This document shows, piece after piece, positions 1 to 27,525 of a stretch of 35,274 nucleotides of DNA (the stretch's first letter is position 1; each line of letters opens with the position of its first letter). A program made the translations under genes and the position numbers. The stretch lies in IMG/VR virus record IMGVR_UViG_2897352509_000012, one strand, 5' to 3'. The DNA comes from a virus. Lineage: Duplodnaviria > Heunggongvirae > Uroviricota > Caudoviricetes. The notes below the pieces were generated by a model. That model saw nothing but the letters and a program-made list of their open reading frames with translations. It had not been told where the DNA came from and searched no databases.

Positions 1-1362
1 ATGTTTAAACCGGAACTCCTTTCCCCGGCGGGAACGCTGAAAAATATGCGTTACGCTTTCGCTTATGGCGCAGATGCTGTTTATGCGGGCCAGCCGCGTT
101 ACTCCCTGCGTGTGCGCAACAACGAATTCAACCACGAAAATCTTCAGCTCGGCATCAATGAAGCCCACGCGCTGGGGAAAAAGTTTTATGTCGTGGTCAA
201 CATTGCCCCGCACAACGCCAAGCTGAAAACCTTTATCCGTGACCTGAAACCGGTGGTGGAAATGGGGCCGGATGCGCTGATTATGTCCGATCCGGGGCTG
301 ATTATGCTGGTGCGCGAGCACTTCCCTAAAATGCCGATCCACCTCTCGGTGCAGGCTAACGCCGTAAACTGGGCGACGGTGAAATTCTGGCAGCAAATGG
401 GCCTGACCCGCGTGATCCTCTCTCGCGAGCTGTCGCTGGAAGAGATTGAAGAGATCCGCCATCAGGTGCCGGATATGGAGATCGAGATCTTCGTTCACGG
501 CGCACTGTGCATGGCCTACTCCGGTCGCTGCCTGCTCTCTGGCTATATCAACAAGCGCGATCCGAACCAGGGTACCTGCACCAACGCCTGCCGCTGGGAG
601 TACAACGTCCAGGAAGGGAAAGAAGATGACGTTGGCAACATCGTACACAAGTACGAGCCGATTCCGGTGCAAAATGTTGAGCCGACGCTAGGTATCGGCG
701 CGCCAACCGACAAAGTGTTTATGATCGAAGAAGCCCAGCGTCCGGGCGAGTATATGACCGCGTTTGAAGATGAGCACGGCACTTACATCATGAACTCGAA
801 AGATCTGCGCGCCATCGCCCATGTAGAACGCCTGACCAAAATGGGCGTGCATTCGCTGAAAATCGAAGGCCGTACTAAATCTTTCTACTATTGCGCACGC
901 ACCGCACAGGTTTATCGTAAAGCTATCGATGATGCCGCTGCGGGCAAACCGTTCGATACCAGCCTGCTGGAAACTCTGGAAGGTCTGGCGCATCGTGGCT
1001 ATACCGAAGGTTTCCTGCGTCGTCATACTCACGACGATTATCAGAACTACGAATACGGTTATTCGGTTTCTGACCGCCAGCAGTTTGTTGGTGAGTTTAC
1101 CGGTGAGCGCAAGGGGGACCTCGCGGCGGTAGCGGTGAAAAATAAATTCTCCGTTGGCGACAGCCTTGAGCTGATGACGCCGCAAGGCAACATTAACTTT
1201 ACCCTTGAGCAGATGGAAAACGCCAAAGGCGAAGCTATGCCGGTAGCACCAGGCGATGGTTATACTGTGTGGCTCCCGGTGCCGCAGGATCTTGAGCTAA
1301 ATTACGCTCTGCTGATGCGTAATTTCTCCGGGGAAACCACGCGTAACCCCCACGGTAAGTGA
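1..1362 (+). CDS. yegQ: U32-family peptidase YegQ (TrhP), full length 453 aa
   Basis: Uninterrupted 453-aa ORF starting MFKPELLSPAGTLKNMRYAF, recognised as E. coli YegQ; host gene at left edge of window. Confidence 0.9.
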   Translation: MFKPELLSPAGTLKNMRYAFAYGADAVYAGQPRYSLRVRNNEFNHENLQLGINEAHALGKKFYVVVNIAPHNAKLKTFIRDLKPVVEMGPDALIMSDPGLIMLVREHFPKMPIHLSVQANAVNWATVKFWQQMGLTRVILSRELSLEEIEEIRHQVPDMEIEIFVHGALCMAYSGRCLLSGYINKRDPNQGTCTNACRWEYNVQEGKEDDVGNIVHKYEPIPVQNVEPTLGIGAPTDKVFMIEEAQRPGEYMTAFEDEHGTYIMNSKDLRAIAHVERLTKMGVHSLKIEGRTKSFYYCARTAQVYRKAIDDAAAGKPFDTSLLETLEGLAHRGYTEGFLRRHTHDDYQNYEYGYSVSDRQQFVGEFTGERKGDLAAVAVKNKFSVGDSLELMTPQGNINFTLEQMENAKGEAMPVAPGDGYTVWLPVPQDLELNYALLMRNFSGETTRNPHGK

Positions 1363-8297: not shown

Positions 8298-8891
8298 CTA
8301 TTTGTCCCGGTTGGCTAAGGGCTGACACAATTTATTTTTTGTCACTGAGGCGGGGAATTTTTTATAGAGCGTGGACAGGCCAATATCAAAAATCAGTGCC
8401 ACGCGTTGACGTGATTCCCCTGCAGCCAGCAACCGCCCGGCCTGCTCCCACTCACTCGCGGTGAGTTTCGGACGTCTGCCACCAATACGACCTTTGGCTC
8501 TGGCCGCCTCCAGTCCGGCGCGTGTCCGCTCGACAATGAGTTCTCGTTCCATTTCAGCCAGGGCACCCATCACATGAAAGAAAAAACGCCCCATCGGCGT
8601 GCTGGTATCAATAGCATCCGTCAGGCTGCGAAAATTAATGCCGCGTTCGCGCAGTTCCTCAACCAGAATGACCAGATGCCGCATACTACGCCCCAGCCTG
8701 TCCAGCTTCCAGACTACCAGAGTGTCACCTGCTGATAATGTTCTGAGCAGTTTTTTTAGTCCCGGTCGGTCGGACTTCGTGCCGCTGATTTTATCCTCAA
8801 AAATCAGCTCACATCCTGCGCACTCCAGCGCGTTACGCTGCAATTCCGTGTTCTGGTCATTTGTTGATACACGAACATAACCTATACGCAT
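8298..8891 (-). CDS. Serine recombinase, Hin/Gin/Pin/Cin-family DNA invertase
   Basis: MRIGYVRVSTNDQNTELQ with catalytic Ser in YVRVSTxxQ, resolvase fold and C-terminal HTH; start taken at MRIGY. Confidence 0.85.
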   Translation of the reverse strand: MRIGYVRVSTNDQNTELQRNALECAGCELIFEDKISGTKSDRPGLKKLLRTLSAGDTLVVWKLDRLGRSMRHLVILVEELRERGINFRSLTDAIDTSTPMGRFFFHVMGALAEMERELIVERTRAGLEAARAKGRIGGRRPKLTASEWEQAGRLLAAGESRQRVALIFDIGLSTLYKKFPASVTKNKLCQPLANRDK

Positions 8892-8915
8892 AAAAATCCC
8901 TATAAAAACAGAATA

Positions 8916-9452
8916 ATGACACATCTTTCAACATCATATTTAACCGATTTCATAAACGTTGGTTTGGGAGAAGGCTCTGCATTACCTGTTGGTGTGCCTG
9001 TTCCATGGCCTTCAGCCACACCGCCAACAGGCTGGCTGAAATGCAACGGTGCGGCATTTTCTGCTGAAGAATACCCGGAACTGGCAAAGGCTTATCCAAC
9101 AAATAAATTACCTGATTTACGCGGTGAGTTTATTCGTGGCTGGGATGACGGGCGCGGTATTGATGCAGGACGTGTTTTATTGAGTATTCAGGCCGGAATG
9201 CTGGAAAAGCATAACCACTATTGGGGAATCTGGACTTCACGAACTAACGACCAGACTCTGGAAAGTTTTACAGGCACCACGATTTTAAAACAAATCACGC
9301 CCCTGTCTCCGGCCATTAACTTCGATAATTACCCAATTCCCAACCCGGCTATTACAGAGGGTGGTGTTGTTGCGGCAACGACTAAACCTGCAGGTGCGAA
9401 TGAAACACGCCCACGAAATGTCGCTTTTAACTATATTGTGAGGGCTGCATAA
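8916..9452 (+). CDS. Alternative tail-fibre C-terminal variable segment, silent in this orientation
   Basis: ORF crosses the crossover site at ...NVGLGEG...; sequence after the site is the alternative C-terminus; the ATG at 8916 is probably not a real start. Confidence 0.55.
   Translation: MTHLSTSYLTDFINVGLGEGSALPVGVPVPWPSATPPTGWLKCNGAAFSAEEYPELAKAYPTNKLPDLRGEFIRGWDDGRGIDAGRVLLSIQAGMLEKHNHYWGIWTSRTNDQTLESFTGTTILKQITPLSPAINFDNYPIPNPAITEGGVVAATTKPAGANETRPRNVAFNYIVRAA
8948..8973. repeat. Inversion crossover site (left), hix/gix-like
   Basis: TTCATAAACGTT-GGTTTGGGAGAAGG; inverted partner at 10849..10876; shared TGGTTTGGGAGAAG half-site with AA/TT centre. Confidence 0.6.
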
Positions 9453-10054
9453 TGAATAACGCAGAATTAAACAGTGAATTAATTGCCACTATGGCAGGAG
9501 AAATTACTGTTTATAACTTTGATGTTGAAACACTGGAATATATTTCCACGTCAACTGAATATCTTGCAGTGGGTGTCGGTATTCCAGCATATTCCTGTTT
9601 AGACGCTCCTGGTACATCTAAGGCTGGTTATACAATTTGCCGTTCTGTGGATTTAAAATCATGGGAATATGTGTCAGACCATCGCGGTGAAATCGTCTAT
9701 AACACCGAAACGGGAGATGCCAAAGAAATCACAGCACTAGGCGACTATCCCGAAAATACAACCACTATCGCCCCTTTATCTCCATACGATAAATGGGATG
9801 GTGAGAAATGGGTGACCGATACTGAGGCACAGCATAGCGCCGCAGTCGAAGCGGCAGAAGCACAACGCCAGTCACTGATTGATGCTGCAATGGCTTCCAT
9901 TAGTCTGATTCAGCTGAAATTACAAGCCGGACGGAAACTGACGCAGGCAGAAACAACCCGACTTAACGCTGTGCTGGATTACATTGACGCGGTGACGGCA
10001 ACAGATACCAGCACCGCGCCGGATGTCATCTGGCCTGAACTGCCGGAGGCGTAG
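9452..10054 (+). CDS. Tail fibre assembly chaperone (alternative set)
   Basis: 200-aa ORF directly after the alternative fibre segment; C-terminus (...LDYIDAVTATDTSTAPDVIWPELP) resembles that of the adjacent assembly protein (...LDYLDALELVDTSSAPDIEWPTPP). Confidence 0.7.
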   Translation: MNNAELNSELIATMAGEITVYNFDVETLEYISTSTEYLAVGVGIPAYSCLDAPGTSKAGYTICRSVDLKSWEYVSDHRGEIVYNTETGDAKEITALGDYPENTTTIAPLSPYDKWDGEKWVTDTEAQHSAAVEAAEAQRQSLIDAAMASISLIQLKLQAGRKLTQAETTRLNAVLDYIDAVTATDTSTAPDVIWPELPEA

Positions 10055-10478
10055 GCCATTCAATATCTGGCGCACTGGAGGTATCAACCAGTTCCAGTGC
10101 GTCCAGATAATCCAGCCACAAATTATATTGCGCCAGTTCCTCACCTTTCAGACGACCAATAGCGGCTTTACCGGGCCATTGCTTACTGTTCATGTATTCG
10201 TTGGCCTGGTTAATTAGTAGCTGTCTTTCTGATTCAGTAATTTCAATAAGTTCTTCATGCGTGGGTGGAGGAATCTCTGCCCACGCAGGCAGCCCATCAT
10301 CTCCGGCAATACGGATTTTTCCTTGTGGCGGTTCAGCCATAAACTCACTGATAATATTTTGATTTACTTCCTTAGCGTCTGATAAATCCCATCCCTCTGA
10401 TTTATATTTATCAATCATATCCACAGGGAAAAAAGCATTATGCCTTGCGCTATAAACATATTCGTTCATATAAATCAC
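10026..10478 (-). CDS. G: Tail fibre assembly chaperone (G-like, active set)
   Basis: 150-aa ORF directly downstream of H on the same strand; 3' end overlaps convergent assembly gene. Confidence 0.75.
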   Translation of the reverse strand: MIYMNEYVYSARHNAFFPVDMIDKYKSEGWDLSDAKEVNQNIISEFMAEPPQGKIRIAGDDGLPAWAEIPPPTHEELIEITESERQLLINQANEYMNSKQWPGKAAIGRLKGEELAQYNLWLDYLDALELVDTSSAPDIEWPTPPAVQAR

Positions 10479-10489
10479 CCTGAATAAAA

Positions 10490-11689
10490 TTACTCACCAA
10501 CAGCCCACCAACTGTAATTCATCGATACCGTGTCGCTGGTTGATGACGTTCTGTAAGCAGAATTAAAGCCGGTTAACGTTGGGCCTTCTGCAGTCATCAC
10601 GAACCCTCGCCCAGCGCCTAAAGGCGCACCGCCATCACCAGAATGAGTAAGCATGGCGCAGTCCGCTTTTTTGGGGAAAGGGATGCTGAATGTAATTCTC
10701 ATTGTTTGCGTCGATAATGTCGGCGTAACCGCACCACGACCATATTGCAGGATTTTCCCGTTGGGTAATTTCATCCATCCATCACCACTGGCAAAAGAGG
10801 CCATGTCCGGTATCTGATTTTCCCCTGTCCCCACATCCCGTTTTGCCGCTTCTCCCAAACCAAGGTATGCGAGAAGACCAGCAACATCCTTTCCACTCAA
10901 ATTAGTAAGCGTATTGTCCAGCGGTTGTTTGCCTGCCAGCGCATTGTTAATGGTGGTGCTGAATTTCGGGTCATTGTTAATGGCTGCGGCAATTTCTTTC
11001 AGTGTGTCCAGCGTGGCTGGCGCACCGTTAATCAGAGCGGTAATAGCGGCCTGAACAAACTCAGTGGTCGCAATCCGCGAGGTGTTATTTCCTGCGGCAG
11101 GCGTCGGCGCTTTTGGTTCTCCGGTAAATGTCGGATTATGTTTCTGCGCATACTGGGTATGAGGATCCTGTGCGGCAATGTGGTTTCTCATCTGGTCATC
11201 CACATACAGCCTTAATTCCAGGACTTCATCATCCACGTATTTACGGGTCGCCAGTACCACCGACGGGTCGATTTTCAGCGTGATGGCTTCGGTATTCGTG
11301 ACAACCAGAATCATGCGGATAGTCTGGGTGCGTCCGCTGCCTTCCTGCAACTGCGGTTTGTACGTTTCCGGGCAGTTTGCCACCGCAATGAGTACACCTT
11401 CATCATCATAAAGACCAATCTCACGGATCCAGAACCCTCCCTCGTTTTCAGGGATGATTTGCTCCGCAATAATCTGGCTCTGATTGTTCGGGTCAACACT
11501 CAGAAGATTCAGCGGTGCAATGCGTTTCTGGTTAATCAGTATTGTCTGTGCCGGGTCTGGTGTCGGCAAGACACCATTCGCATCACCAACGGCCATTTGC
11601 GTCAGATTCAGCTTACTGCCGAGCATCGTCGCGTTAGCCAGCCGTGCTGCGCCCTGATTAGTCAGAATGGCGTAGTATTTCACTGTCAT
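10490..11689 (-). CDS. H: Tail fibre protein H; constant N-terminus (about 10863..11689) fused to variable C-terminus (10490..10862)
   Basis: N-terminus MTVKYYAILTNQGAARLANA recognised as P2 gpH-like; crossover site inside ORF at ...AYLGLGEAA... Confidence 0.85.
   Translation of the reverse strand: MTVKYYAILTNQGAARLANATMLGSKLNLTQMAVGDANGVLPTPDPAQTILINQKRIAPLNLLSVDPNNQSQIIAEQIIPENEGGFWIREIGLYDDEGVLIAVANCPETYKPQLQEGSGRTQTIRMILVVTNTEAITLKIDPSVVLATRKYVDDEVLELRLYVDDQMRNHIAAQDPHTQYAQKHNPTFTGEPKAPTPAAGNNTSRIATTEFVQAAITALINGAPATLDTLKEIAAAINNDPKFSTTINNALAGKQPLDNTLTNLSGKDVAGLLAYLGLGEAAKRDVGTGENQIPDMASFASGDGWMKLPNGKILQYGRGAVTPTLSTQTMRITFSIPFPKKADCAMLTHSGDGGAPLGAGRGFVMTAEGPTLTGFNSAYRTSSTSDTVSMNYSWWAVGE
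10849..10876. repeat. Inversion crossover site (right), hix/gix-like, inside H
   Basis: CTTCTCCCAAACC-AA-GGTATGCGAGAAG, inverted relative to 8948..8973. Confidence 0.6.
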
Positions 11690-23456: not shown

Positions 23457-23598
23457 ACACCCCGTCATCACGCCCTCACACGCTCACCACCGCGCAAAAC
23501 AGCCCGCAGACAAACCAACGCCCCGGCGCACAATCTAAACGCCATCACGACGCGCTCAGACGCTGAAAAAATAAAATCAGCACCACCGCCAGCGCGCA

Positions 23599-23617: not shown

Positions 23618-23746
23618 CGCCCGCTTCGTGGGGCGGTTTTAATGCAGATGCATTATGAGCCCTGAGCTGCGCCTAACGTGACACAGCTTCACTAAATAGA
23701 CTCATTATCCACATGCAATCTAATTCAAAAAAATGCATGTATAGTA

Positions 23747-25717
23747 TTAAAGGTCATCAATTAAACCTAAAGGCAAACCGTCCTCACCAACCGAGCTATA
23801 ATGAGCGATAATATTCGAAAGTTCACCAGTAGAAAACGAATTAGGCAAATCATTATCAACTAATATAATCTGGCACGGAACATTTTTTCTTTCTGCTTTT
23901 TGAACTGTATTCAATAGTTGTTCATAAATATTTTGATACTTCATCGGATCTGACATTCCCTCAAGGTCATCCTCGAATGCAAGAGTTTCTTTTGAATATT
24001 TTTCCTTGGTCTGTTTCCCTAAATATTTGCCAACCGTATCAAATATCAAAAGTAAAGGATGGTTAACATTATGATCTATTGCATAATCAAGAATAGACAA
24101 AAGATACCCAATAGAAGAAATAGTTCTCAAACCTCCGGATGTTATTTTAAAATATTCTTTTTCTCTTATAACAGGAATGTAATAGCTTTCAGAGATTTTT
24201 ATCCCCGTTCTGTTTTTGATATTAATACTCTTCAAATACTGACTAAATCTATCACCCAAACCTTGTAAAATGCCCTCCATGCTAGGTGCGTTTTTCTTTA
24301 ACGCCTCCAAGCGTTCAGTTAATGCTTCAATATCTTTTCTCAGTACCTGATACTTTTCAAGCAGTTCCTCTTGCTGGTTTCTAACCTTCAAATCTTTTAC
24401 TAACTGCTCCCTAACCTTCTCATTTTTTGAGATCTCTTTAATATAAAAATCTCTCTGAGTCAAGAATGGTGTAATCATTGACTGGCTTTCTTCGTCAATC
24501 AATTCTCTCAACTCGTCAAGTCGTTCATCTAATTCCTTTTTATAACCTGATTCTTTTTTTAATTTAAATGACATTTCTGAGATCATGTCATTAATATTTC
24601 GTCTACGTCGACTAAGTGAATTCAACTCTTCATTAAGATCTTTTTCTGATGAAATTTCAAATGGAAAATCAGAATCATCTATTTTAATGTGGCTATCACA
24701 GACTGGACAGGAAAATACTTCCTTATCCAATACACCAATGCGAGAATTTGCTGTTTTAATCGCTTTGAGTTTTTCAATATCATTATCATAGTCATTTTTT
24801 AACCGCGAATATTTATCAATCTTATCCTCAAGCGCAGTAATATTTAATATGCACTCTTTGTATTTAAGCGAAATAAAATTGTGAGCATCTTTCAATTCTG
24901 TATACTGTATGGAATCCGCTTTCATATTTTTATCGAGAGCAGACAAACCTGCAACAAGTTCTTCTAAAACAAGATCTATCCTATTAATCTCATCATCAAT
25001 TGATTCAATCGTTTCATAGTCTGTATCGCGAAGAAATTCAGATATTATCTGATACTTCCTATTTAATTCCGTTACTAAACTACTTTTTGCAGATATTTCA
25101 CCTTGGAGTCTGGCGATGCTTTCATCCAACACATTGAACATGTATTTAAAAACTTCTTTCGTAAATGCGTAGCGGGACCAATCACCCAATCGCAAGAAAG
25201 ATTTACTACCAATATCATCCTGACTTACATAAACAAATTTATATATATTTCTAAAACTTAACCTGCGCATCTGTGAATGAGCTTTAGAAGGAGACACCTT
25301 AATTTCAATCTTTGGAAAATTAAGACTATCAAGTAAAAACTCCGAAAAAACACCATCAACATTTGATAATGGGCTATAATTAGGAGCGTATTTTTTCGGA
25401 AAATGTTTATGTAAATCATCAAACTTACAACGATAAACTTCTATTGCTTTTTTATGATCATAGATATCTCTTACGATTGTGAATACAGTATCATTGATCA
25501 CTACTTCAAGAGCAGCATAGTTTACTGATGTTTTTATTTCATCTGCTAAATCTATAGAGCTAGCACCTAAAAGATAATTAATAAACTCCAGAATGCTTGA
25601 CTTACCTGTGTCAGAGTCTCCGTAGATAACATTGAGACCTTTATAAAAAGTAGTGACGTAGTTTTTACGAACGCCAACAAGAATCAAACTATTGATATTG
25701 AGATATGATTTCATCAT
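23747..25717 (-). CDS. SMC/Rad50-like ABC ATPase with coiled coil and CxxC zinc hook (cargo gene 3)
   Basis: Walker A GDSDTGKS (res 33-40), heptad-rich middle with CPVC (res 337-340), signature TSGGL (526-530), Walker B LLLIFD (555-560). Confidence 0.75.
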   Translation of the reverse strand: MMKSYLNINSLILVGVRKNYVTTFYKGLNVIYGDSDTGKSSILEFINYLLGASSIDLADEIKTSVNYAALEVVINDTVFTIVRDIYDHKKAIEVYRCKFDDLHKHFPKKYAPNYSPLSNVDGVFSEFLLDSLNFPKIEIKVSPSKAHSQMRRLSFRNIYKFVYVSQDDIGSKSFLRLGDWSRYAFTKEVFKYMFNVLDESIARLQGEISAKSSLVTELNRKYQIISEFLRDTDYETIESIDDEINRIDLVLEELVAGLSALDKNMKADSIQYTELKDAHNFISLKYKECILNITALEDKIDKYSRLKNDYDNDIEKLKAIKTANSRIGVLDKEVFSCPVCDSHIKIDDSDFPFEISSEKDLNEELNSLSRRRRNINDMISEMSFKLKKESGYKKELDERLDELRELIDEESQSMITPFLTQRDFYIKEISKNEKVREQLVKDLKVRNQQEELLEKYQVLRKDIEALTERLEALKKNAPSMEGILQGLGDRFSQYLKSINIKNRTGIKISESYYIPVIREKEYFKITSGGLRTISSIGYLLSILDYAIDHNVNHPLLLIFDTVGKYLGKQTKEKYSKETLAFEDDLEGMSDPMKYQNIYEQLLNTVQKAERKNVPCQIILVDNDLPNSFSTGELSNIIAHYSSVGEDGLPLGLIDDL

Positions 25718-26226
25718 TTCTCCTTGAAGACTTGATTTATAACAGAGTTTAACTTAGAGGTAGGCAATGCTTGTAGCGGTAACAATGCTTCGGATAGTCG
25801 TTTTATTTCTTTAAAATATCCATCAGTCAATGAGCTAGCAAATTCCTTACCTTTTTCAGATAAAAATAATTTAACACTCTCATTATTTTTTTTCTCAGCT
25901 GAGAGCAATCCCCGCAATGACATAATTTTTATAAGATATTTCACTTTGGAATTGTCGAATAAGATATCTACATTTGTTGAAAAACTCTTTATTGTATAAG
26001 TTAACTGGGACTCGACACAAGCAGGCTTTTTCCCCGAAACTGTAAGAGCATAATCAATTTTTGATGGGTTTTTTATCAGATACATAAAAATTTGTATTTT
26101 ATTAATATCTAATGATAACACTCCTTTTTTGCTATGAGATAATATAGATATAGCAATGGCAAGCATAGCAAAATTCAAGCTATACTCTTCATCAAGAGGA
26201 ATATACGGCAAGTTATTTTTCTTCAT
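25714..26226 (-). CDS. Small protein of unknown function, 170 aa (cargo gene 2)
   Basis: ORF overlaps both neighbours (14 nt and ATGA overlap), same AT-rich composition; no recognisable motifs. Confidence 0.6.
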   Translation of the reverse strand: MKKNNLPYIPLDEEYSLNFAMLAIAISILSHSKKGVLSLDINKIQIFMYLIKNPSKIDYALTVSGKKPACVESQLTYTIKSFSTNVDILFDNSKVKYLIKIMSLRGLLSAEKKNNESVKLFLSEKGKEFASSLTDGYFKEIKRLSEALLPLQALPTSKLNSVINQVFKEK

Positions 26227-27436
26227 GATTACCTCGCCGTAATTGCTCCAAAGTTTCTACGCTGGTTTCAGATGACCAGACAATATCCCTGTCATTTTTG
26301 TTAGCCAGTTGATGCAACATTCCTTTCTTATGTATCGTTTCTAAACTTTTTATAAGAGAATCTAACGACGACTTATCCTCTTGGGCTATTCGTCTATGAA
26401 CAGCAGCAATAAATTTATCTGGGGAAATTGAATTCGCGATATATTGCTCATACTCTTCCTGGTAAATCTCCCTTATTTTAGAATACAAATGACCAAGTAG
26501 TTTCCTATCGTAATCACTCGTAAAAATATTTCTCGCAAGCTCAGCATTATAATAATATTCCTTTGCATGCATAGCGATATCCTGATGTATATCTGCGACA
26601 ATCATTTTTAAGACGAAATACTCATTATCATATTGTTTCTCATCAGAAAAACGCTCAACACATATCTTCTTGGGTGCTTCTAAATTTATCTGCTGAATAA
26701 ATTGCTTTACCGCAACAAACACTGTAGACGAGCTGTTTTCGGGCTTGCAAATTGAGCTATGCCCTTCATTAACTGCAATTGAGTTATTTCGTTCACTATC
26801 CATCGGTAATGCGCTTTTTTTATCAACTATAGTGTCATGAGAACCATAAACATATCTAGTGATAGGAAGTTTTTTGCTACAATTTATCCAGCGCCTATTC
26901 AACGTATCGGTCGCTTCACTTAACAATCCAAGATCTACTAACTGAGCATTTGAAGATACCATTGAAGTTATATTCGCCAATTTAGCACCAAAGTGAGGGA
27001 CTGCTAACGAAATGAATCCAATTATATTAGATTGTTCCTCATGCTCAACTTTTTTTAGAATTAGATTTTTTGATATTACCCCCCCCATACTATGGGCGAT
27101 TATTATAATTCGAGAGTAATCACTTAGCGTTACCCTAATCTCAGTATACAATAACTCAGCTATTTCATCAGTTGGTAAATTTCTCTCTAACTTATTTTTC
27201 TTAGAGAAAATACGAGCCCATAATCCTGACGTTTTAGCATACGTTTGTGTAAATTTGGTGAAATAATTGAAACATGCAATATCAAATACATTGCCAATGT
27301 CTTCATCTTCTGCTAATAGTTTTGGAAATGAAGTTTCTTTATTAAAGTTCCATGTTTCCAAACCACCATTTAATCCATGTACAAATAGTATCAGGCTATC
27401 TTTTTTCTCGTGGCTTATCCATTCAACCATGCTCAT
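26213..27436 (-). CDS. Lipase-like alpha/beta hydrolase fused to C-terminal helical domain, 407 aa (cargo gene 1)
   Basis: HG oxyanion motif (LILFVHGLNGG), AHSMG nucleophile pentapeptide (Ser116), downstream GSHDT (Asp201) and EGHSS (His226); C-terminal about 160 aa helical, Tyr/Glu-rich. Confidence 0.75.
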   Translation of the reverse strand: MSMVEWISHEKKDSLILFVHGLNGGLETWNFNKETSFPKLLAEDEDIGNVFDIACFNYFTKFTQTYAKTSGLWARIFSKKNKLERNLPTDEIAELLYTEIRVTLSDYSRIIIIAHSMGGVISKNLILKKVEHEEQSNIIGFISLAVPHFGAKLANITSMVSSNAQLVDLGLLSEATDTLNRRWINCSKKLPITRYVYGSHDTIVDKKSALPMDSERNNSIAVNEGHSSICKPENSSSTVFVAVKQFIQQINLEAPKKICVERFSDEKQYDNEYFVLKMIVADIHQDIAMHAKEYYYNAELARNIFTSDYDRKLLGHLYSKIREIYQEEYEQYIANSISPDKFIAAVHRRIAQEDKSSLDSLIKSLETIHKKGMLHQLANKNDRDIVWSSETSVETLEQLRRGNHEEK

Positions 27437-27525
27437 ATGCTTTTCTGCCGTGTATAAAAATTAAACTATAACAAACAATTCCTCAACAATAACATATTGT
27501 TACCCCGTTTGACCGTTTTTTTCAA
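27437..27525 (-). promoter_or_regulatory. AT-rich putative promoter region upstream of the cargo cassette
   Basis: Minus strand shows TTGTTG ... TTTAAT-like hexamers; assignment by eye only. Confidence 0.3.

What the first reader, a model, noticed from the sequence alone, without database searches (positions are those of the whole stretch)
23747..25717. Rad50/SMC-like ABC ATPase with a CPVC zinc hook and a Walker B lacking the catalytic glutamate
Walker A GDSDTGKS (25598..25621), signature TSGGL and Walker B LLLIFD are separated by about 300 residues of heptad-rich sequence with a central C-P-V-C (24698..24709), the arrangement of a Rad50-type zinc hook at a coiled-coil apex. The Walker B aspartate is followed by Thr (LLLIFD-T) instead of the usual Glu, which would imply ATP binding with slow or no hydrolysis, i.e. 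a sensor or clamp rather than a motor.
Basis: seen in the sequence. Interest (0 to 1): 0.65.

Follow-up and report, generated by a model that had tools for sequence, protein, structure and literature searches.

The report
Lamassu LmuB sensor ATPase in prophage
The gene encodes LmuB, the Rad50-like DNA-sensing ATPase of a known three-gene Lamassu anti-phage system with a lipase effector, carried in the defence hotspot of a P2-like prophage of E. coli O157:H7. Its zinc hook and glutamate-less Walker B are real, but both are published traits of this family.

Summary
The CPVC lies at the exact midpoint of a ~280-residue antiparallel coiled coil. The Walker B is LLLIFD-T, with no alternative hhhhDE anywhere in the protein. 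D-T and C-P-x-C are invariant in 115 homologues.

The protein is LmuB of a short (type II) Lamassu / ABC-3C defence system (PADLOC LmuB E=1.5e-235; best fold matches are the solved LmuB structures). It is the last gene of an overlapping lmuA-lmuC-lmuB operon. lmuA encodes an alpha/beta-hydrolase "lipase" plus CTD8, and lmuC encodes MC4. The operon forms a 33% GC island between gpA and the portal gene of a P2-like prophage, the published P2 defence hotspot. RefSeq already annotates the partners as ABC-three component system proteins.

The zinc hook and the deviant Walker B (hhhhD[Q/S/T/E] in short Lamassu) are published, and an E. coli Lamassu-Lipase has been validated experimentally.

One small addition: in this clade the H-loop His is also replaced (Asn622), as is the D-loop Asp (Gly567). 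The solved LmuBs have D-Q and keep the His. The ATP sites may therefore be even more hydrolysis-impaired.

Verdict: real, correctly read, already known. Low interest.

The parts
26213..27436 (-). lmuA: effector, 407 aa. N-terminal alpha/beta-hydrolase (lipase-like) with Ser116 (27089..27091, AHSMGG), Asp201 (26834..26836) and His226 (26759..26761). C-terminal ABC-3C CTD8 docking domain (residues ~265-389).
   Evidence: Pfam CTD8 1.7e-35, DUF676 4e-9, PGAP1 3.6e-7, Abhydrolase_1 5e-6. PADLOC LmuA PDLC03851 3.5e-108. The triad is invariant in 52/52 orthologues. RefSeq name: 'ABC-three component system protein'.
25714..26226 (-). lmuC: middle component, 170 aa. Overlaps lmuA by 14 nt and lmuB by 4 nt (ATGA).
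   Evidence: Pfam MC4 (PF20290) 5e-27. PADLOC LmuC PDLC03869 1.5e-52. Overlaps computed. RefSeq name: 'ABC-three component system middle component 4'.
23747..25717 (-). lmuB: Rad50/SMC-like coiled-coil ABC ATPase, 656 aa (the finding).
   Evidence: PADLOC LmuB PDLC03862 1.5e-235 over residues 2-656. Foldseek top hits are solved Lamassu LmuB chains 9uxh_F 1.8e-20, 9hqx_B 1.1e-18, 9hqu_A, 9nyg_B and 9ux7_A, with Rad50 only from rank 9. Profile against PDB: 9hqu_A at 6.4e-35.
25598..25621 (-). Walker A / P-loop GDSDTGKS (residues 33-40; Lys39).
   Evidence: G33, G38, K39 and S40 are invariant in 115/115; K39 is 108/108 in representatives.
25220..25222 (-). Q-loop glutamine Gln166.
   Evidence: 115/115 and 73/108 in distant representatives. 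The Q-loop assignment is by position in the N-terminal head and is an inference.
24740..25123 (-). Ascending coiled-coil arm, residues 199-326. The model has helix breaks at 231-236 and 265-269.
   Evidence: AF2 secondary structure. Heptad periodicity z=4.1, 0/300 shuffles reach it.
24698..24709 (-). CPVC zinc-hook motif (Cys337, Cys340) at the coiled-coil apex (turn 327-357).
   Evidence: Invariant in all homologue sets. Aligns with CPMC of the solved Salmonella LmuB 9hqu. Zinc binding itself was not tested.
24290..24646 (-). Descending coiled-coil arm, residues 358-476.
   Evidence: AF2. Heptad periodicity z=3.5, 0/300 shuffles reach it.
24128..24142 (-). ABC signature motif TSGGL (residues 526-530).
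   Evidence: S527, G528, G529, L530, R531 and T532 are 115/115. hhalign aligns SGG with the SGGE of E. coli SbcC.
24035..24055 (-). Walker B LLLIFD (555-560) followed by Thr561 in place of the catalytic Glu. The D-loop position (Gly567, 24017..24019) lacks Asp.
   Evidence: D560 and T561 are 115/115. The position after D is T53, S46, G6, N2, A1 and never E or Q in 108 representatives. Beta strand 556-560 in the model. Aligned with ILDQ of 9hqu and 9ny5. The spacing to the signature motif matches SbcC.
23849..23860 (-). H-loop-equivalent V620-D621-N622-D623, where Asn622 replaces the ABC 'switch' histidine.
   Evidence: It follows strand 616-621. Invariant 115/115; N in 98/108 representatives and H in 4; N in 49/49 species loci. 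Solved LmuBs read LDH at the aligned position; SbcC reads ISH.
23640..27525 (.). Low-GC cargo island in the P2 gpQ(portal)/gpA variable hotspot. The three genes have 33% GC against ~53% in the flanking portal and gpA genes.
   Evidence: Flanking genes. The hotspot is described in PMC13586616 and PMC9122126. The island boundaries are approximate.

Best explanation
The ORF is LmuB, the sensor subunit of a short (type II) Lamassu / ABC-3C abortive-infection system with a lipase-type effector. The system is carried as cargo in the gpA-gpQ defence hotspot of a P2-like prophage of E. coli O157:H7.

The likely mechanism is inferred by homology to the solved Salmonella and Vibrio LmuACB complexes.
- Two LmuB chains pair through their coiled coils and the Cys337/Cys340 hook.
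- One LmuC (MC4) and the CTD8 domain of one LmuA dock near the hook-proximal coiled coil. This holds the alpha/beta-hydrolase domain of LmuA as an inactive monomer.
- When a competing phage replicates, ATP-bound, engaged LmuB heads bind DNA ends or replication intermediates.
- The rearrangement frees LmuA, which oligomerises and becomes active.
- Here the effector is presumably a lipase/esterase that damages the cell envelope rather than a nuclease. The infected cell dies before the invader spreads.

The ATP site keeps everything needed for nucleotide binding and head engagement: Walker A Lys39, Gln166, the SGG signature and Walker B Asp560. It lacks three hydrolysis-specific residues: Glu is Thr561, the D-loop Asp is Gly567, and the H-loop His is Asn622. 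ATP therefore most likely acts as a binding switch with very slow or no turnover.
For: Shown here:
- Family assignment of all three proteins.
- Fold match to solved LmuB chains ahead of Rad50.
- Profile match to 9hqu (6.4e-35) and 9ny5 with Walker B and CxxC in register.
- Overlapping three-gene operon.
- The same lmuA(hydrolase+CTD8)-lmuC-lmuB order in all 51 other-species loci that include upstream DNA, spanning Proteobacteria, Bacteroidota and Firmicutes, and in a conjugative-element context and a resolvase island.
- LmuA Ser/Asp/His triad conserved 52/52.
- Binding motifs invariant while Glu, His and the D-loop Asp are replaced.
- Position in the P2 hotspot.
- 33% GC island.

From the literature:
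- LmuACB architecture, the nuclease-sequestration state, the need for the zinc hook, Walker A and signature motif for defence, and about 1 ATP/min with DNA (10.1101/2025.03.14.643221).
- Short-Lamassu Walker B hhhhD[Q/S/T/E], and a validated E. coli Lamassu-Lipase whose Walker A and lipase-His mutants lose defence against Lambda-vir (PMC12663957).
Against: - No experiment exists for this exact locus. The tested Ec-Lipase system is numbered K42/H215 against K39/H226 here, so it is probably a different member.
- Complex stoichiometry, zinc binding, DNA-end sensing and effector release are extrapolated from LmuBs that share only about 15% identity and carry nuclease effectors.
- The apex of the monomer model has low confidence (pLDDT 60-67).
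- The 'lipase' label rests on moderate Pfam hits (DUF676 4e-9, PGAP1 3.6e-7), and the substrate is unknown.
- Solved D-Q LmuBs do hydrolyse ATP, and one preprint argues that hydrolysis regulates activity (10.1101/2025.06.23.660979). 'Binding-only' may therefore be wrong even here.
Confidence: 0.9

Rival explanations
1. Same protein family and system, but LmuB of this clade is a competent ATPase. Another residue, for example the invariant acidic pair Asp621/Asp623 flanking Asn622, or Thr561 positioning the water, would replace the missing Glu and His. A hydrolysis cycle would then drive DNA scanning and resetting, as proposed for Vibrio and Bacillus LmuB.
For: D-Q LmuBs hydrolyse ATP at a 'moderate rate', and ATPgammaS does not reproduce the ATP effects (10.1101/2025.06.23.660979; PMC12663957). 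D621 and D623 are invariant in 115/115, and D621 is D in 94/108 representatives. Such strong conservation is compatible with a catalytic role.
Against: Three hydrolysis-specific residues are missing at once. By established knowledge of ABC ATPases, loss of the Walker B Glu or of the H-loop His each reduces turnover by orders of magnitude, and degenerate sites with both changes (e.g. CFTR NBD1) bind ATP without hydrolysing it. D621 is also present in the His-containing solved LmuBs (LDH), so it is not a compensating novelty.
Confidence: 0.3
2. It is a DNA-repair SbcC/Rad50 paralogue, as many database names ('exonuclease SbcC', 'double-stranded DNA repair protein Rad50') imply, working with a nuclease to process hairpins or breaks for the prophage.
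For: It has the Rad50-like head / coiled-coil / CxxC architecture. NCBI names of homologues include SbcC and Rad50. Rad50 structures appear in the fold search from rank 9.
Against: - There is no Mre11/SbcD-type nuclease gene nearby; the neighbours are LmuC and a hydrolase LmuA.
- NCBIfam Rad50 models score 15-23 bits against cut-offs of 700-1000.
- The coiled coil is about 280 aa, whereas E. coli SbcC is 1048 aa in total.
- The Walker B lacks Glu.
- hhalign to SbcC aligns only the P-loop region.
Confidence: 0.02
3. The system's main role is not anti-phage. It would instead act against plasmids or stabilise the element, like DdmABC in Vibrio cholerae, or serve as an addiction module that stabilises the P2-like prophage.
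For: Lamassu/DdmABC restricts plasmids (PMC10586767). Overexpression of Lamassu is toxic (PMC12663957). Homologous operons also sit on a conjugative-element-like contig and in a resolvase island.
Against: The locus occupies the P2 hotspot that typically holds anti-phage systems (PMC13586616). The tested E. coli Lamassu-Lipase protects against Lambda-vir. The two roles are not mutually exclusive, and the molecular mechanism would be the same.
Confidence: 0.08

Closest known systems
Lamassu Ec-Lipase (short Lamassu, clade H) of Haudiquet et al., PNAS 2025 (PMC12663957)
   Same: An E. coli three-gene LmuA(lipase)-LmuC-LmuB system with a single CxxC zinc hook and a non-Glu Walker B. Defence needs the Walker A Lys and the lipase catalytic His.
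   Different: I could not establish whether it is the same system. The published mutant numbering (LmuB K42, LmuA H215) differs from K39 and H226 here, so it is probably a related but distinct member. The sequence of Ec-Lipase was not available in the held text.
Salmonella enterica LmuACB (PDB 9hqu/9hqx; Li et al., bioRxiv 10.1101/2025.03.14.643221)
   Same: Similar size (660-aa deposited chain against 656 aa here), head / coiled-coil / CP[MV]C hook architecture, LmuA-LmuC-LmuB operon, and deviant Walker B. It is the best sequence match in the PDB (6.4e-35 with a family profile) and a top fold match.
   Different: About 15% identity. Its Walker B is D-Q and its H-loop His is retained (LDH), against D-T and VDN here. 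Its effector is a Cap4-type nuclease, not an alpha/beta-hydrolase. Its LmuC and LmuA-CTD belong to other ABC-3C subfamilies.
Vibrio cholerae DdmABC = Lamassu Vc-Cap4 (PDB 9ny5/9nyg/9uxh)
   Same: Short Lamassu with the same gene order. DdmC/LmuB is a top fold hit (9uxh_F 1.8e-20).
   Different: DdmC has lost the CxxC hook (PMC12663957; no Cys pair in the aligned apex), has D-Q plus His, and has a nuclease effector.
Rad50 / SbcC of the Mre11-Rad50 (SbcCD) DNA-repair complex
   Same: Bipartite ABC head, antiparallel coiled coil, apical CxxC zinc hook and DNA-end recognition. It is the proposed evolutionary ancestor of Lamassu (PMC12663957).
   Different: Canonical hhhhDE Walker B, D-loop Asp and H-loop His (SbcC: LFLDEGFGTLD ... 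VISH). It has a much longer coiled coil, an obligatory Mre11/SbcD nuclease partner, and a repair rather than defence role.
Degenerate nucleotide-binding sites of ABC proteins (e.g. CFTR NBD1, TAP1); from general knowledge, not tested here
   Same: Walker A, Walker B Asp and the signature motif are retained, while the catalytic Glu and the H-loop His are replaced. ATP is bound stably and acts as a structural or regulatory ligand.
   Different: Those are heterodimers with one active and one degenerate site. An LmuB homodimer would have both sites degenerate.

Membership tests
Lamassu LmuB (ABC-3C ATPase, short/type II) | Sequence match to LmuB family profiles | tested here: met
   PADLOC PDLC03862 E=1.5e-235 over residues 2-656, plus 12 further LmuB models. 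Profile hit to solved LmuB 9hqu at 6.4e-35.
Lamassu LmuB (ABC-3C ATPase, short/type II) | Split ABC head joined by a short (~20 nm) antiparallel coiled coil; fold closest to solved LmuB | tested here: met
   AF2 pLDDT 86, helices 199-326 and 358-476. Foldseek ranks 1-3 and 5-8 are LmuB chains. Heptad test.
Lamassu LmuB (ABC-3C ATPase, short/type II) | Operon with an LmuA effector carrying an ABC-3C C-terminal domain and an LmuC middle component | tested here: met
   CTD8 1.7e-35 and MC4 5e-27. Overlapping genes. The LmuA N-domain and CTD8 are present in all 51 loci that include upstream DNA, and LmuC is detected in 44 loci overall.
Lamassu LmuB (ABC-3C ATPase, short/type II) | Deviant Walker B without catalytic Glu (published: hhhhD[Q/S/T/E] in short Lamassu) | tested here: met
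   LLLIFD-T. T561 is 115/115. Published consensus in PMC12663957.
Lamassu LmuB (ABC-3C ATPase, short/type II) | CxxC hook at the apex (present in many but not all LmuBs) that binds zinc and dimerises | tested here: inconclusive
   The motif and its apical position are confirmed and aligned with CPMC of 9hqu. Metal binding and dimerisation cannot be tested with these tools.
Lamassu LmuB (ABC-3C ATPase, short/type II) | Confers anti-phage or anti-plasmid defence | not testable with these tools
   Only indirect evidence: the P2 defence-hotspot location and a validated related E. coli lipase system (PMC12663957).
Lamassu-Lipase subtype (DefenseFinder) / clade H | LmuA N-terminal alpha/beta-hydrolase (lipase-like) with a Ser-Asp-His triad | tested here: met
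   DUF676, PGAP1, Abhydrolase_1 and LCAT hits. S116, D201 and H226 are invariant in 52/52. Enzymatic substrate not tested.
Rad50 / SbcC DNA-repair ATPase | Canonical Walker B hhhhDE, D-loop Asp and H-loop His | tested here: not met
   D-T, Gly567 and Asn622. SbcC motifs for comparison.
Rad50 / SbcC DNA-repair ATPase | Adjacent Mre11/SbcD phosphoesterase partner | tested here: not met
   The neighbours are LmuC, LmuA, portal and gpA.
Rad50 / SbcC DNA-repair ATPase | Reaches curated family score | tested here: not met
   NCBIfam Rad50 models score 22.6 and 15.1 bits against cut-offs of 1000 and 700. Pfam SMC_N scores 22.5 against 40.
Rad50 / SbcC DNA-repair ATPase | Apical CxxC zinc hook | tested here: met
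   CPVC at the apex. There is a weak profile match to the Rad50 hook structure 1l8d (E=0.3).
Canonical SMC (Smc/MukB/JetC) | Globular hinge domain at the coiled-coil apex and a kleisin partner | tested here: not met
   The apex is a 31-residue turn with CxxC. The JetC model hit is only 0.0014. There is no kleisin-like neighbour.

The most novel reading that the evidence does not exclude
The Lamassu-Lipase clade of LmuB may be a naturally hydrolysis-dead ABC homodimer. The Walker B Glu is Thr/Ser, the H-loop His is Asn and the D-loop Asp is Gly, while every ATP-binding and head-engagement residue is kept. The solved, biochemically studied LmuBs have D-Q and retain the His.

If true, Lamassu activation in this clade is a one-way ATP-binding switch with no reset. 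The clade would then be a natural experiment for a question Li et al. left open: whether LmuB's residual ATP hydrolysis matters for defence at all. The three Lamassu structure papers I could read do not mention the H-loop change in their main text.
Probability: 0.35. Interest if true: 0.4.

Novelty: already known. Interest (0 to 1): 0.18.

Why it matters
The result mainly matters as an annotation correction. Proteins of this cluster are variously labelled 'AAA family ATPase', 'exonuclease SbcC' or 'Rad50' in public databases. They are in fact the sensor of a Lamassu abortive-infection system carried by a P2-like prophage in 96 of 5426 complete E. coli genomes, including many O157:H7 strains and E. 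coli B derivatives.

For the Lamassu field, the clade offers a ready-made variant in which the ATP site lacks both the catalytic Glu/Gln and the switch His. This variant could separate the roles of ATP binding and ATP hydrolysis in sensor activation. It also carries a non-nuclease (lipase) effector, whose activation and target are less studied than Cap4.

Tried and rejected
- hhalign of the family profiles (A1, A2) against E. coli SbcC aligned only the P-loop region. A C-terminal-only hhalign aligned just the signature motif. I therefore placed the Walker B, D-loop and H-loop correspondence with SbcC by spacing and secondary structure, and confirmed it with the HMM alignment to solved LmuBs.
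- tblastn of LmuB against 50,697 deposited phage genomes found nothing, so the P2-cargo context rests on prophages in bacterial genomes only.
- The 522-aa representative of the query's 90% cluster looked like a widespread truncated allele lacking the C-terminal head. The cluster listing showed it is one of many partial proteins from fragmented draft assemblies. All 96 complete genomes carry the full-length gene.
- I could not identify the published Ec-Lipase system from the main text or supplements. The source strain and sequence are not in the held text.
- Krishnan et al. 2020 (the ABC-3C definition) is not held, so I could not check whether the H-loop change was noted there.
- The search for related loci with the broad alignment A2 failed for lack of conserved stretches. 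The scan with A1 used the patterns [YH]GDS[DA]TGKS and [MLI][ILF]DTVGKYL. T561 counts from those loci are therefore circular, and I used them only for N622, the CxxC and the operon partners.
- The promoter and terminator scans gave nothing above shuffles for promoters. There is only a weak candidate promoter at 27525..27496 and a weak terminator-like hairpin at 23595..23580 on the minus strand. I did not rely on either.
- I rejected other SMC-like defence ATPases (GajA, JetC, AriA), whose hits are only E=6e-4 to 0.05 and restricted to the P-loop or coiled coil.
Full report

Yes. The ORF at 23747..25717 on the minus strand encodes 656 aa. It is identical to the RefSeq CDS WP_244423787.1 of E. 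coli O157:H7 strains TR01 and EC4115.

- Walker A GDSDTGKS: residues 33-40, 25598..25621
- CPVC: residues 337-340, 24698..24709
- signature TSGGL: residues 526-530, 24128..24142
- Walker B LLLIFD: residues 555-560, 24038..24055, followed by Thr561

No other hhhhD[DE] exists in the protein. The only other hhhhD is IILVD621.

An AlphaFold2 model built on 55 homologues (mean pLDDT 86) gives an N-terminal head (1-193), an ascending helix (199-326), a 31-residue turn containing CPVC, a descending helix (358-476) and a C-terminal head (480-656). The midpoint between the head boundaries is residue 336.5.

Both arms show heptad a/d hydrophobic periodicity beyond all 300 shuffles (z=4.1 and 3.5). The heads do not.

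With five cysteines, about 0.04 CxxC motifs are expected by chance. C337, P338 and C340 are invariant in 115/115 homologues of 43-87% identity. In 108 cluster representatives down to about 20% identity, both cysteines are invariant and P338 is present in 107.

**2. What is it?**

All three genes of the minus-strand cluster 27436..23747 match the Lamassu / ABC-three-component (ABC-3C) defence system.

| Gene product | Size | Evidence |
|---|---|---|
| LmuB | 656 aa | PADLOC LmuB E=1.5e-235 over its full length |
| LmuC | 170 aa | ABC-3C middle component MC4 (Pfam 5e-27; PADLOC LmuC 1.5e-52) |
| LmuA | 407 aa | DUF676/PGAP1-type alpha/beta-hydrolase domain plus ABC-3C CTD8 (1.7e-35; PADLOC LmuA 3.5e-108) |

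- The genes overlap by 14 and 4 nt.
- Foldseek of the model against the PDB returns solved Lamassu LmuB chains first: 9uxh_F at 1.8e-20, then 9hqx, 9hqu, 9nyg and 9ux7. Rad50 appears only from rank 9.
- A family profile hits the Salmonella LmuB 9hqu at 6.4e-35 and the Vibrio DdmC/LmuB 9ny5 at 2.7e-18. The P-loop, CxxC (for 9hqu), signature, Walker B and the last head strand are all in register.
- NCBIfam Rad50, SMC and RecF models are far below their cut-offs.

**3. Context**

The window is a complete P2-like prophage. It contains tail and baseplate genes, capsid genes, terminase, portal, gpA, cox and integrase. It sits between host yegQ-like and yegS-like genes.

The Lamassu genes have 33% GC against about 53% in the adjoining portal and gpA genes. 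They fill the gap between gpA and gpQ, which is the main P2 defence hotspot described in the literature (PMC13586616; PMC9122126).

The whole island occurs in 96 of 5426 complete E. coli genomes, always chromosomal and full-length.

In other species, every one of the 51 loci that include upstream DNA has the same hydrolase-LmuA/CTD8 arrangement. LmuC was detectable in 44 loci. These loci span Proteobacteria, Bacteroidota and Firmicutes. Two homologues examined sit in a conjugative-element-like contig and a resolvase island. The operon is therefore a mobile unit, not a P2 gene set.

The LmuA Ser116/Asp201/His226 triad is invariant in 52/52.

**4. The Walker B question**

D560-T561 is invariant in the 115 near homologues. 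In 108 50%-identity representatives from an exhaustive HMM search, the residue after the Walker B Asp is T (53), S (46), G (6), N (2) or A (1). It is never E or Q.

The assignment of the motif has three supports:
- the beta strand 556-560 in the model
- the alignment with FLILDQ and YIIYDQ of the solved LmuBs
- the signature-to-Walker-B spacing, 33 residues here against 31 in E. coli SbcC

The feature is nevertheless not new. A 2023 review already notes that LmuB generally carries an E-to-Q Walker B and a CPxCG-like hook (PMC10586767). Haudiquet et al. give the short-Lamassu consensus as hhhhD[Q/S/T/E] and map CxxC copy number over the LmuB tree (PMC12663957). Li et al. show that the hook, Walker A and signature motif are needed for defence, and that the D-Q Salmonella complex turns over about 1 ATP/min with DNA (10.1101/2025.03.14.643221).

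**5. A small addition**

Two further hydrolysis-related positions are also changed in this clade.
- The strand that precedes the ABC H-loop reads QIILVD-N622-D. Asn is invariant in 115/115, found in 98/108 representatives (His in only 4) and in 49/49 species loci.
- The solved LmuBs read LDH at the aligned position, and SbcC reads ISH.
- The D-loop position, seven residues after the Walker B Asp, is Gly567 instead of Asp.

By contrast, Lys39, Gln166, the SGG signature and Asp560 are invariant. This pattern keeps binding and engagement residues and loses catalytic ones. From general knowledge, it is the pattern of degenerate ABC sites such as CFTR NBD1. Here it would apply to both sites of a homodimer.

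The main texts of the three Lamassu structure papers I could read do not mention the H-loop. I could not read Krishnan et al. 2020.

**6. Most likely mechanism**

Steps marked (inferred) rest on homology.
- LmuB dimerises along its coiled coils and through the Cys337/Cys340 hook (inferred; the motif is shown, the zinc is not).
- LmuC and the CTD8 of LmuA bind the hook-proximal coiled coil and hold the hydrolase domain inactive as a monomer (inferred from 9hqu and 9ny5).
- On infection, ATP-engaged heads bind DNA ends or replication intermediates. LmuA is released, oligomerises and attacks a cellular target, here probably membrane lipid, which aborts the infection (inferred).
- A related E. coli Lamassu-Lipase protects against Lambda-vir, and both the Walker A Lys and the lipase His are needed (PMC12663957).
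- ATP most likely acts as a binding switch with very slow or no turnover (inferred from the motif pattern).

The main rival on this last point is that hydrolysis still occurs and regulates the system, as argued for D-Q LmuBs (10.1101/2025.06.23.660979).

**7. Membership**

All testable defining features of short/type II Lamassu LmuB are met: profile match, fold, operon partners and deviant Walker B. Zinc binding and defence activity cannot be tested here.

Membership in Rad50/SbcC proper fails on Walker B, D-loop, H-loop, partner nuclease, coil length and curated scores. Only the hook is shared. Canonical SMC is excluded because there is no hinge and no kleisin.

**8. Verdict**

The object is an already described and already annotated kind of system. 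RefSeq names the partners ABC-three component system proteins, and the PADLOC models match almost perfectly.

Interest is low. The only modestly new angle is the triple loss of catalytic residues in the lipase clade. That clade could be used to test whether ATP hydrolysis is needed for Lamassu activation.

Noticed in passing
window 23849..23860 (LmuB V620-D623) and 24017..24019 (G567): Besides the Walker B Glu, the H-loop His (Asn622) and the D-loop Asp (Gly567) are replaced in this LmuB clade. Asn is found in 98/108 representatives. The solved LmuBs 9hqu and 9ny5 keep the His (LDH) and have D-Q.
   Followed up: yes
window 8298..11689: A serine invertase (Resolvase+HTH_7, 8298..8924, minus strand) lies next to oppositely oriented tail-fibre C-terminal and tail-fibre-assembly gene pairs: Collar 8916..9452 (+) and Caudo_TAP 9452..10054 (+), against Caudo_TAP 10026..10478 (-) and tail fibre 10490..11689 (-). 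This looks like a Mu Gin / P1 Cin-type invertible host-range segment in a P2-like prophage, in a region of about 46% GC. A quick inverted-repeat search found no convincing crossover sites at the expected borders.
   Followed up: partly
window 1..1362 and 34375..35274: The prophage is flanked by host genes: a peptidase U32 (yegQ-like) at the left end and a DAGK/YegS-type lipid kinase at the right end. The integrase is at 32374..33387. The window therefore holds the entire integrated element.
   Followed up: partly
protein cluster of the query (P0005, P0269-P0282): The 90%-identity cluster containing this LmuB has 1268 members. Among the 15 listed, most are partial fragments from draft E. coli assemblies, named variously 'AAA family ATPase', 'exonuclease SbcC' or 'DUF342 domain-containing protein'. 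The 522-aa representative is such a fragment, not a truncated allele. The AT-rich island evidently breaks short-read assemblies and attracts inconsistent names.
   Followed up: yes
E. coli genome hits H37-H39: The same lmuB (97.2% nucleotide identity) is present in E. coli B-lineage laboratory derivatives (AS19-RrmA-, B-ZidR, B-StaR). Common B-type laboratory strains may therefore carry this Lamassu system.
   Followed up: no
phage collection: tblastn of LmuB found no match in 50,697 deposited phage genomes, although the gene sits inside an apparently complete P2-like prophage. This cargo is so far visible only in integrated prophages and other islands.
   Followed up: no
alignment A2, apex region: Many distant relatives carry a second CxxC about 12 residues after the first (consensus CPxC-x12-CxxC). 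This agrees with the published 'zero, one or two' hook copies. The window protein has only one.
   Followed up: no
window 30884..31390 (-) and 33652..34029 (-): Two ORFs (168 aa and 125 aa) have no Pfam match at E<=0.001. The first lies in the early region of the prophage. The second lies between the integrase and the host yegS-like gene, a minor P2 cargo position according to PMC13586616.
   Followed up: no
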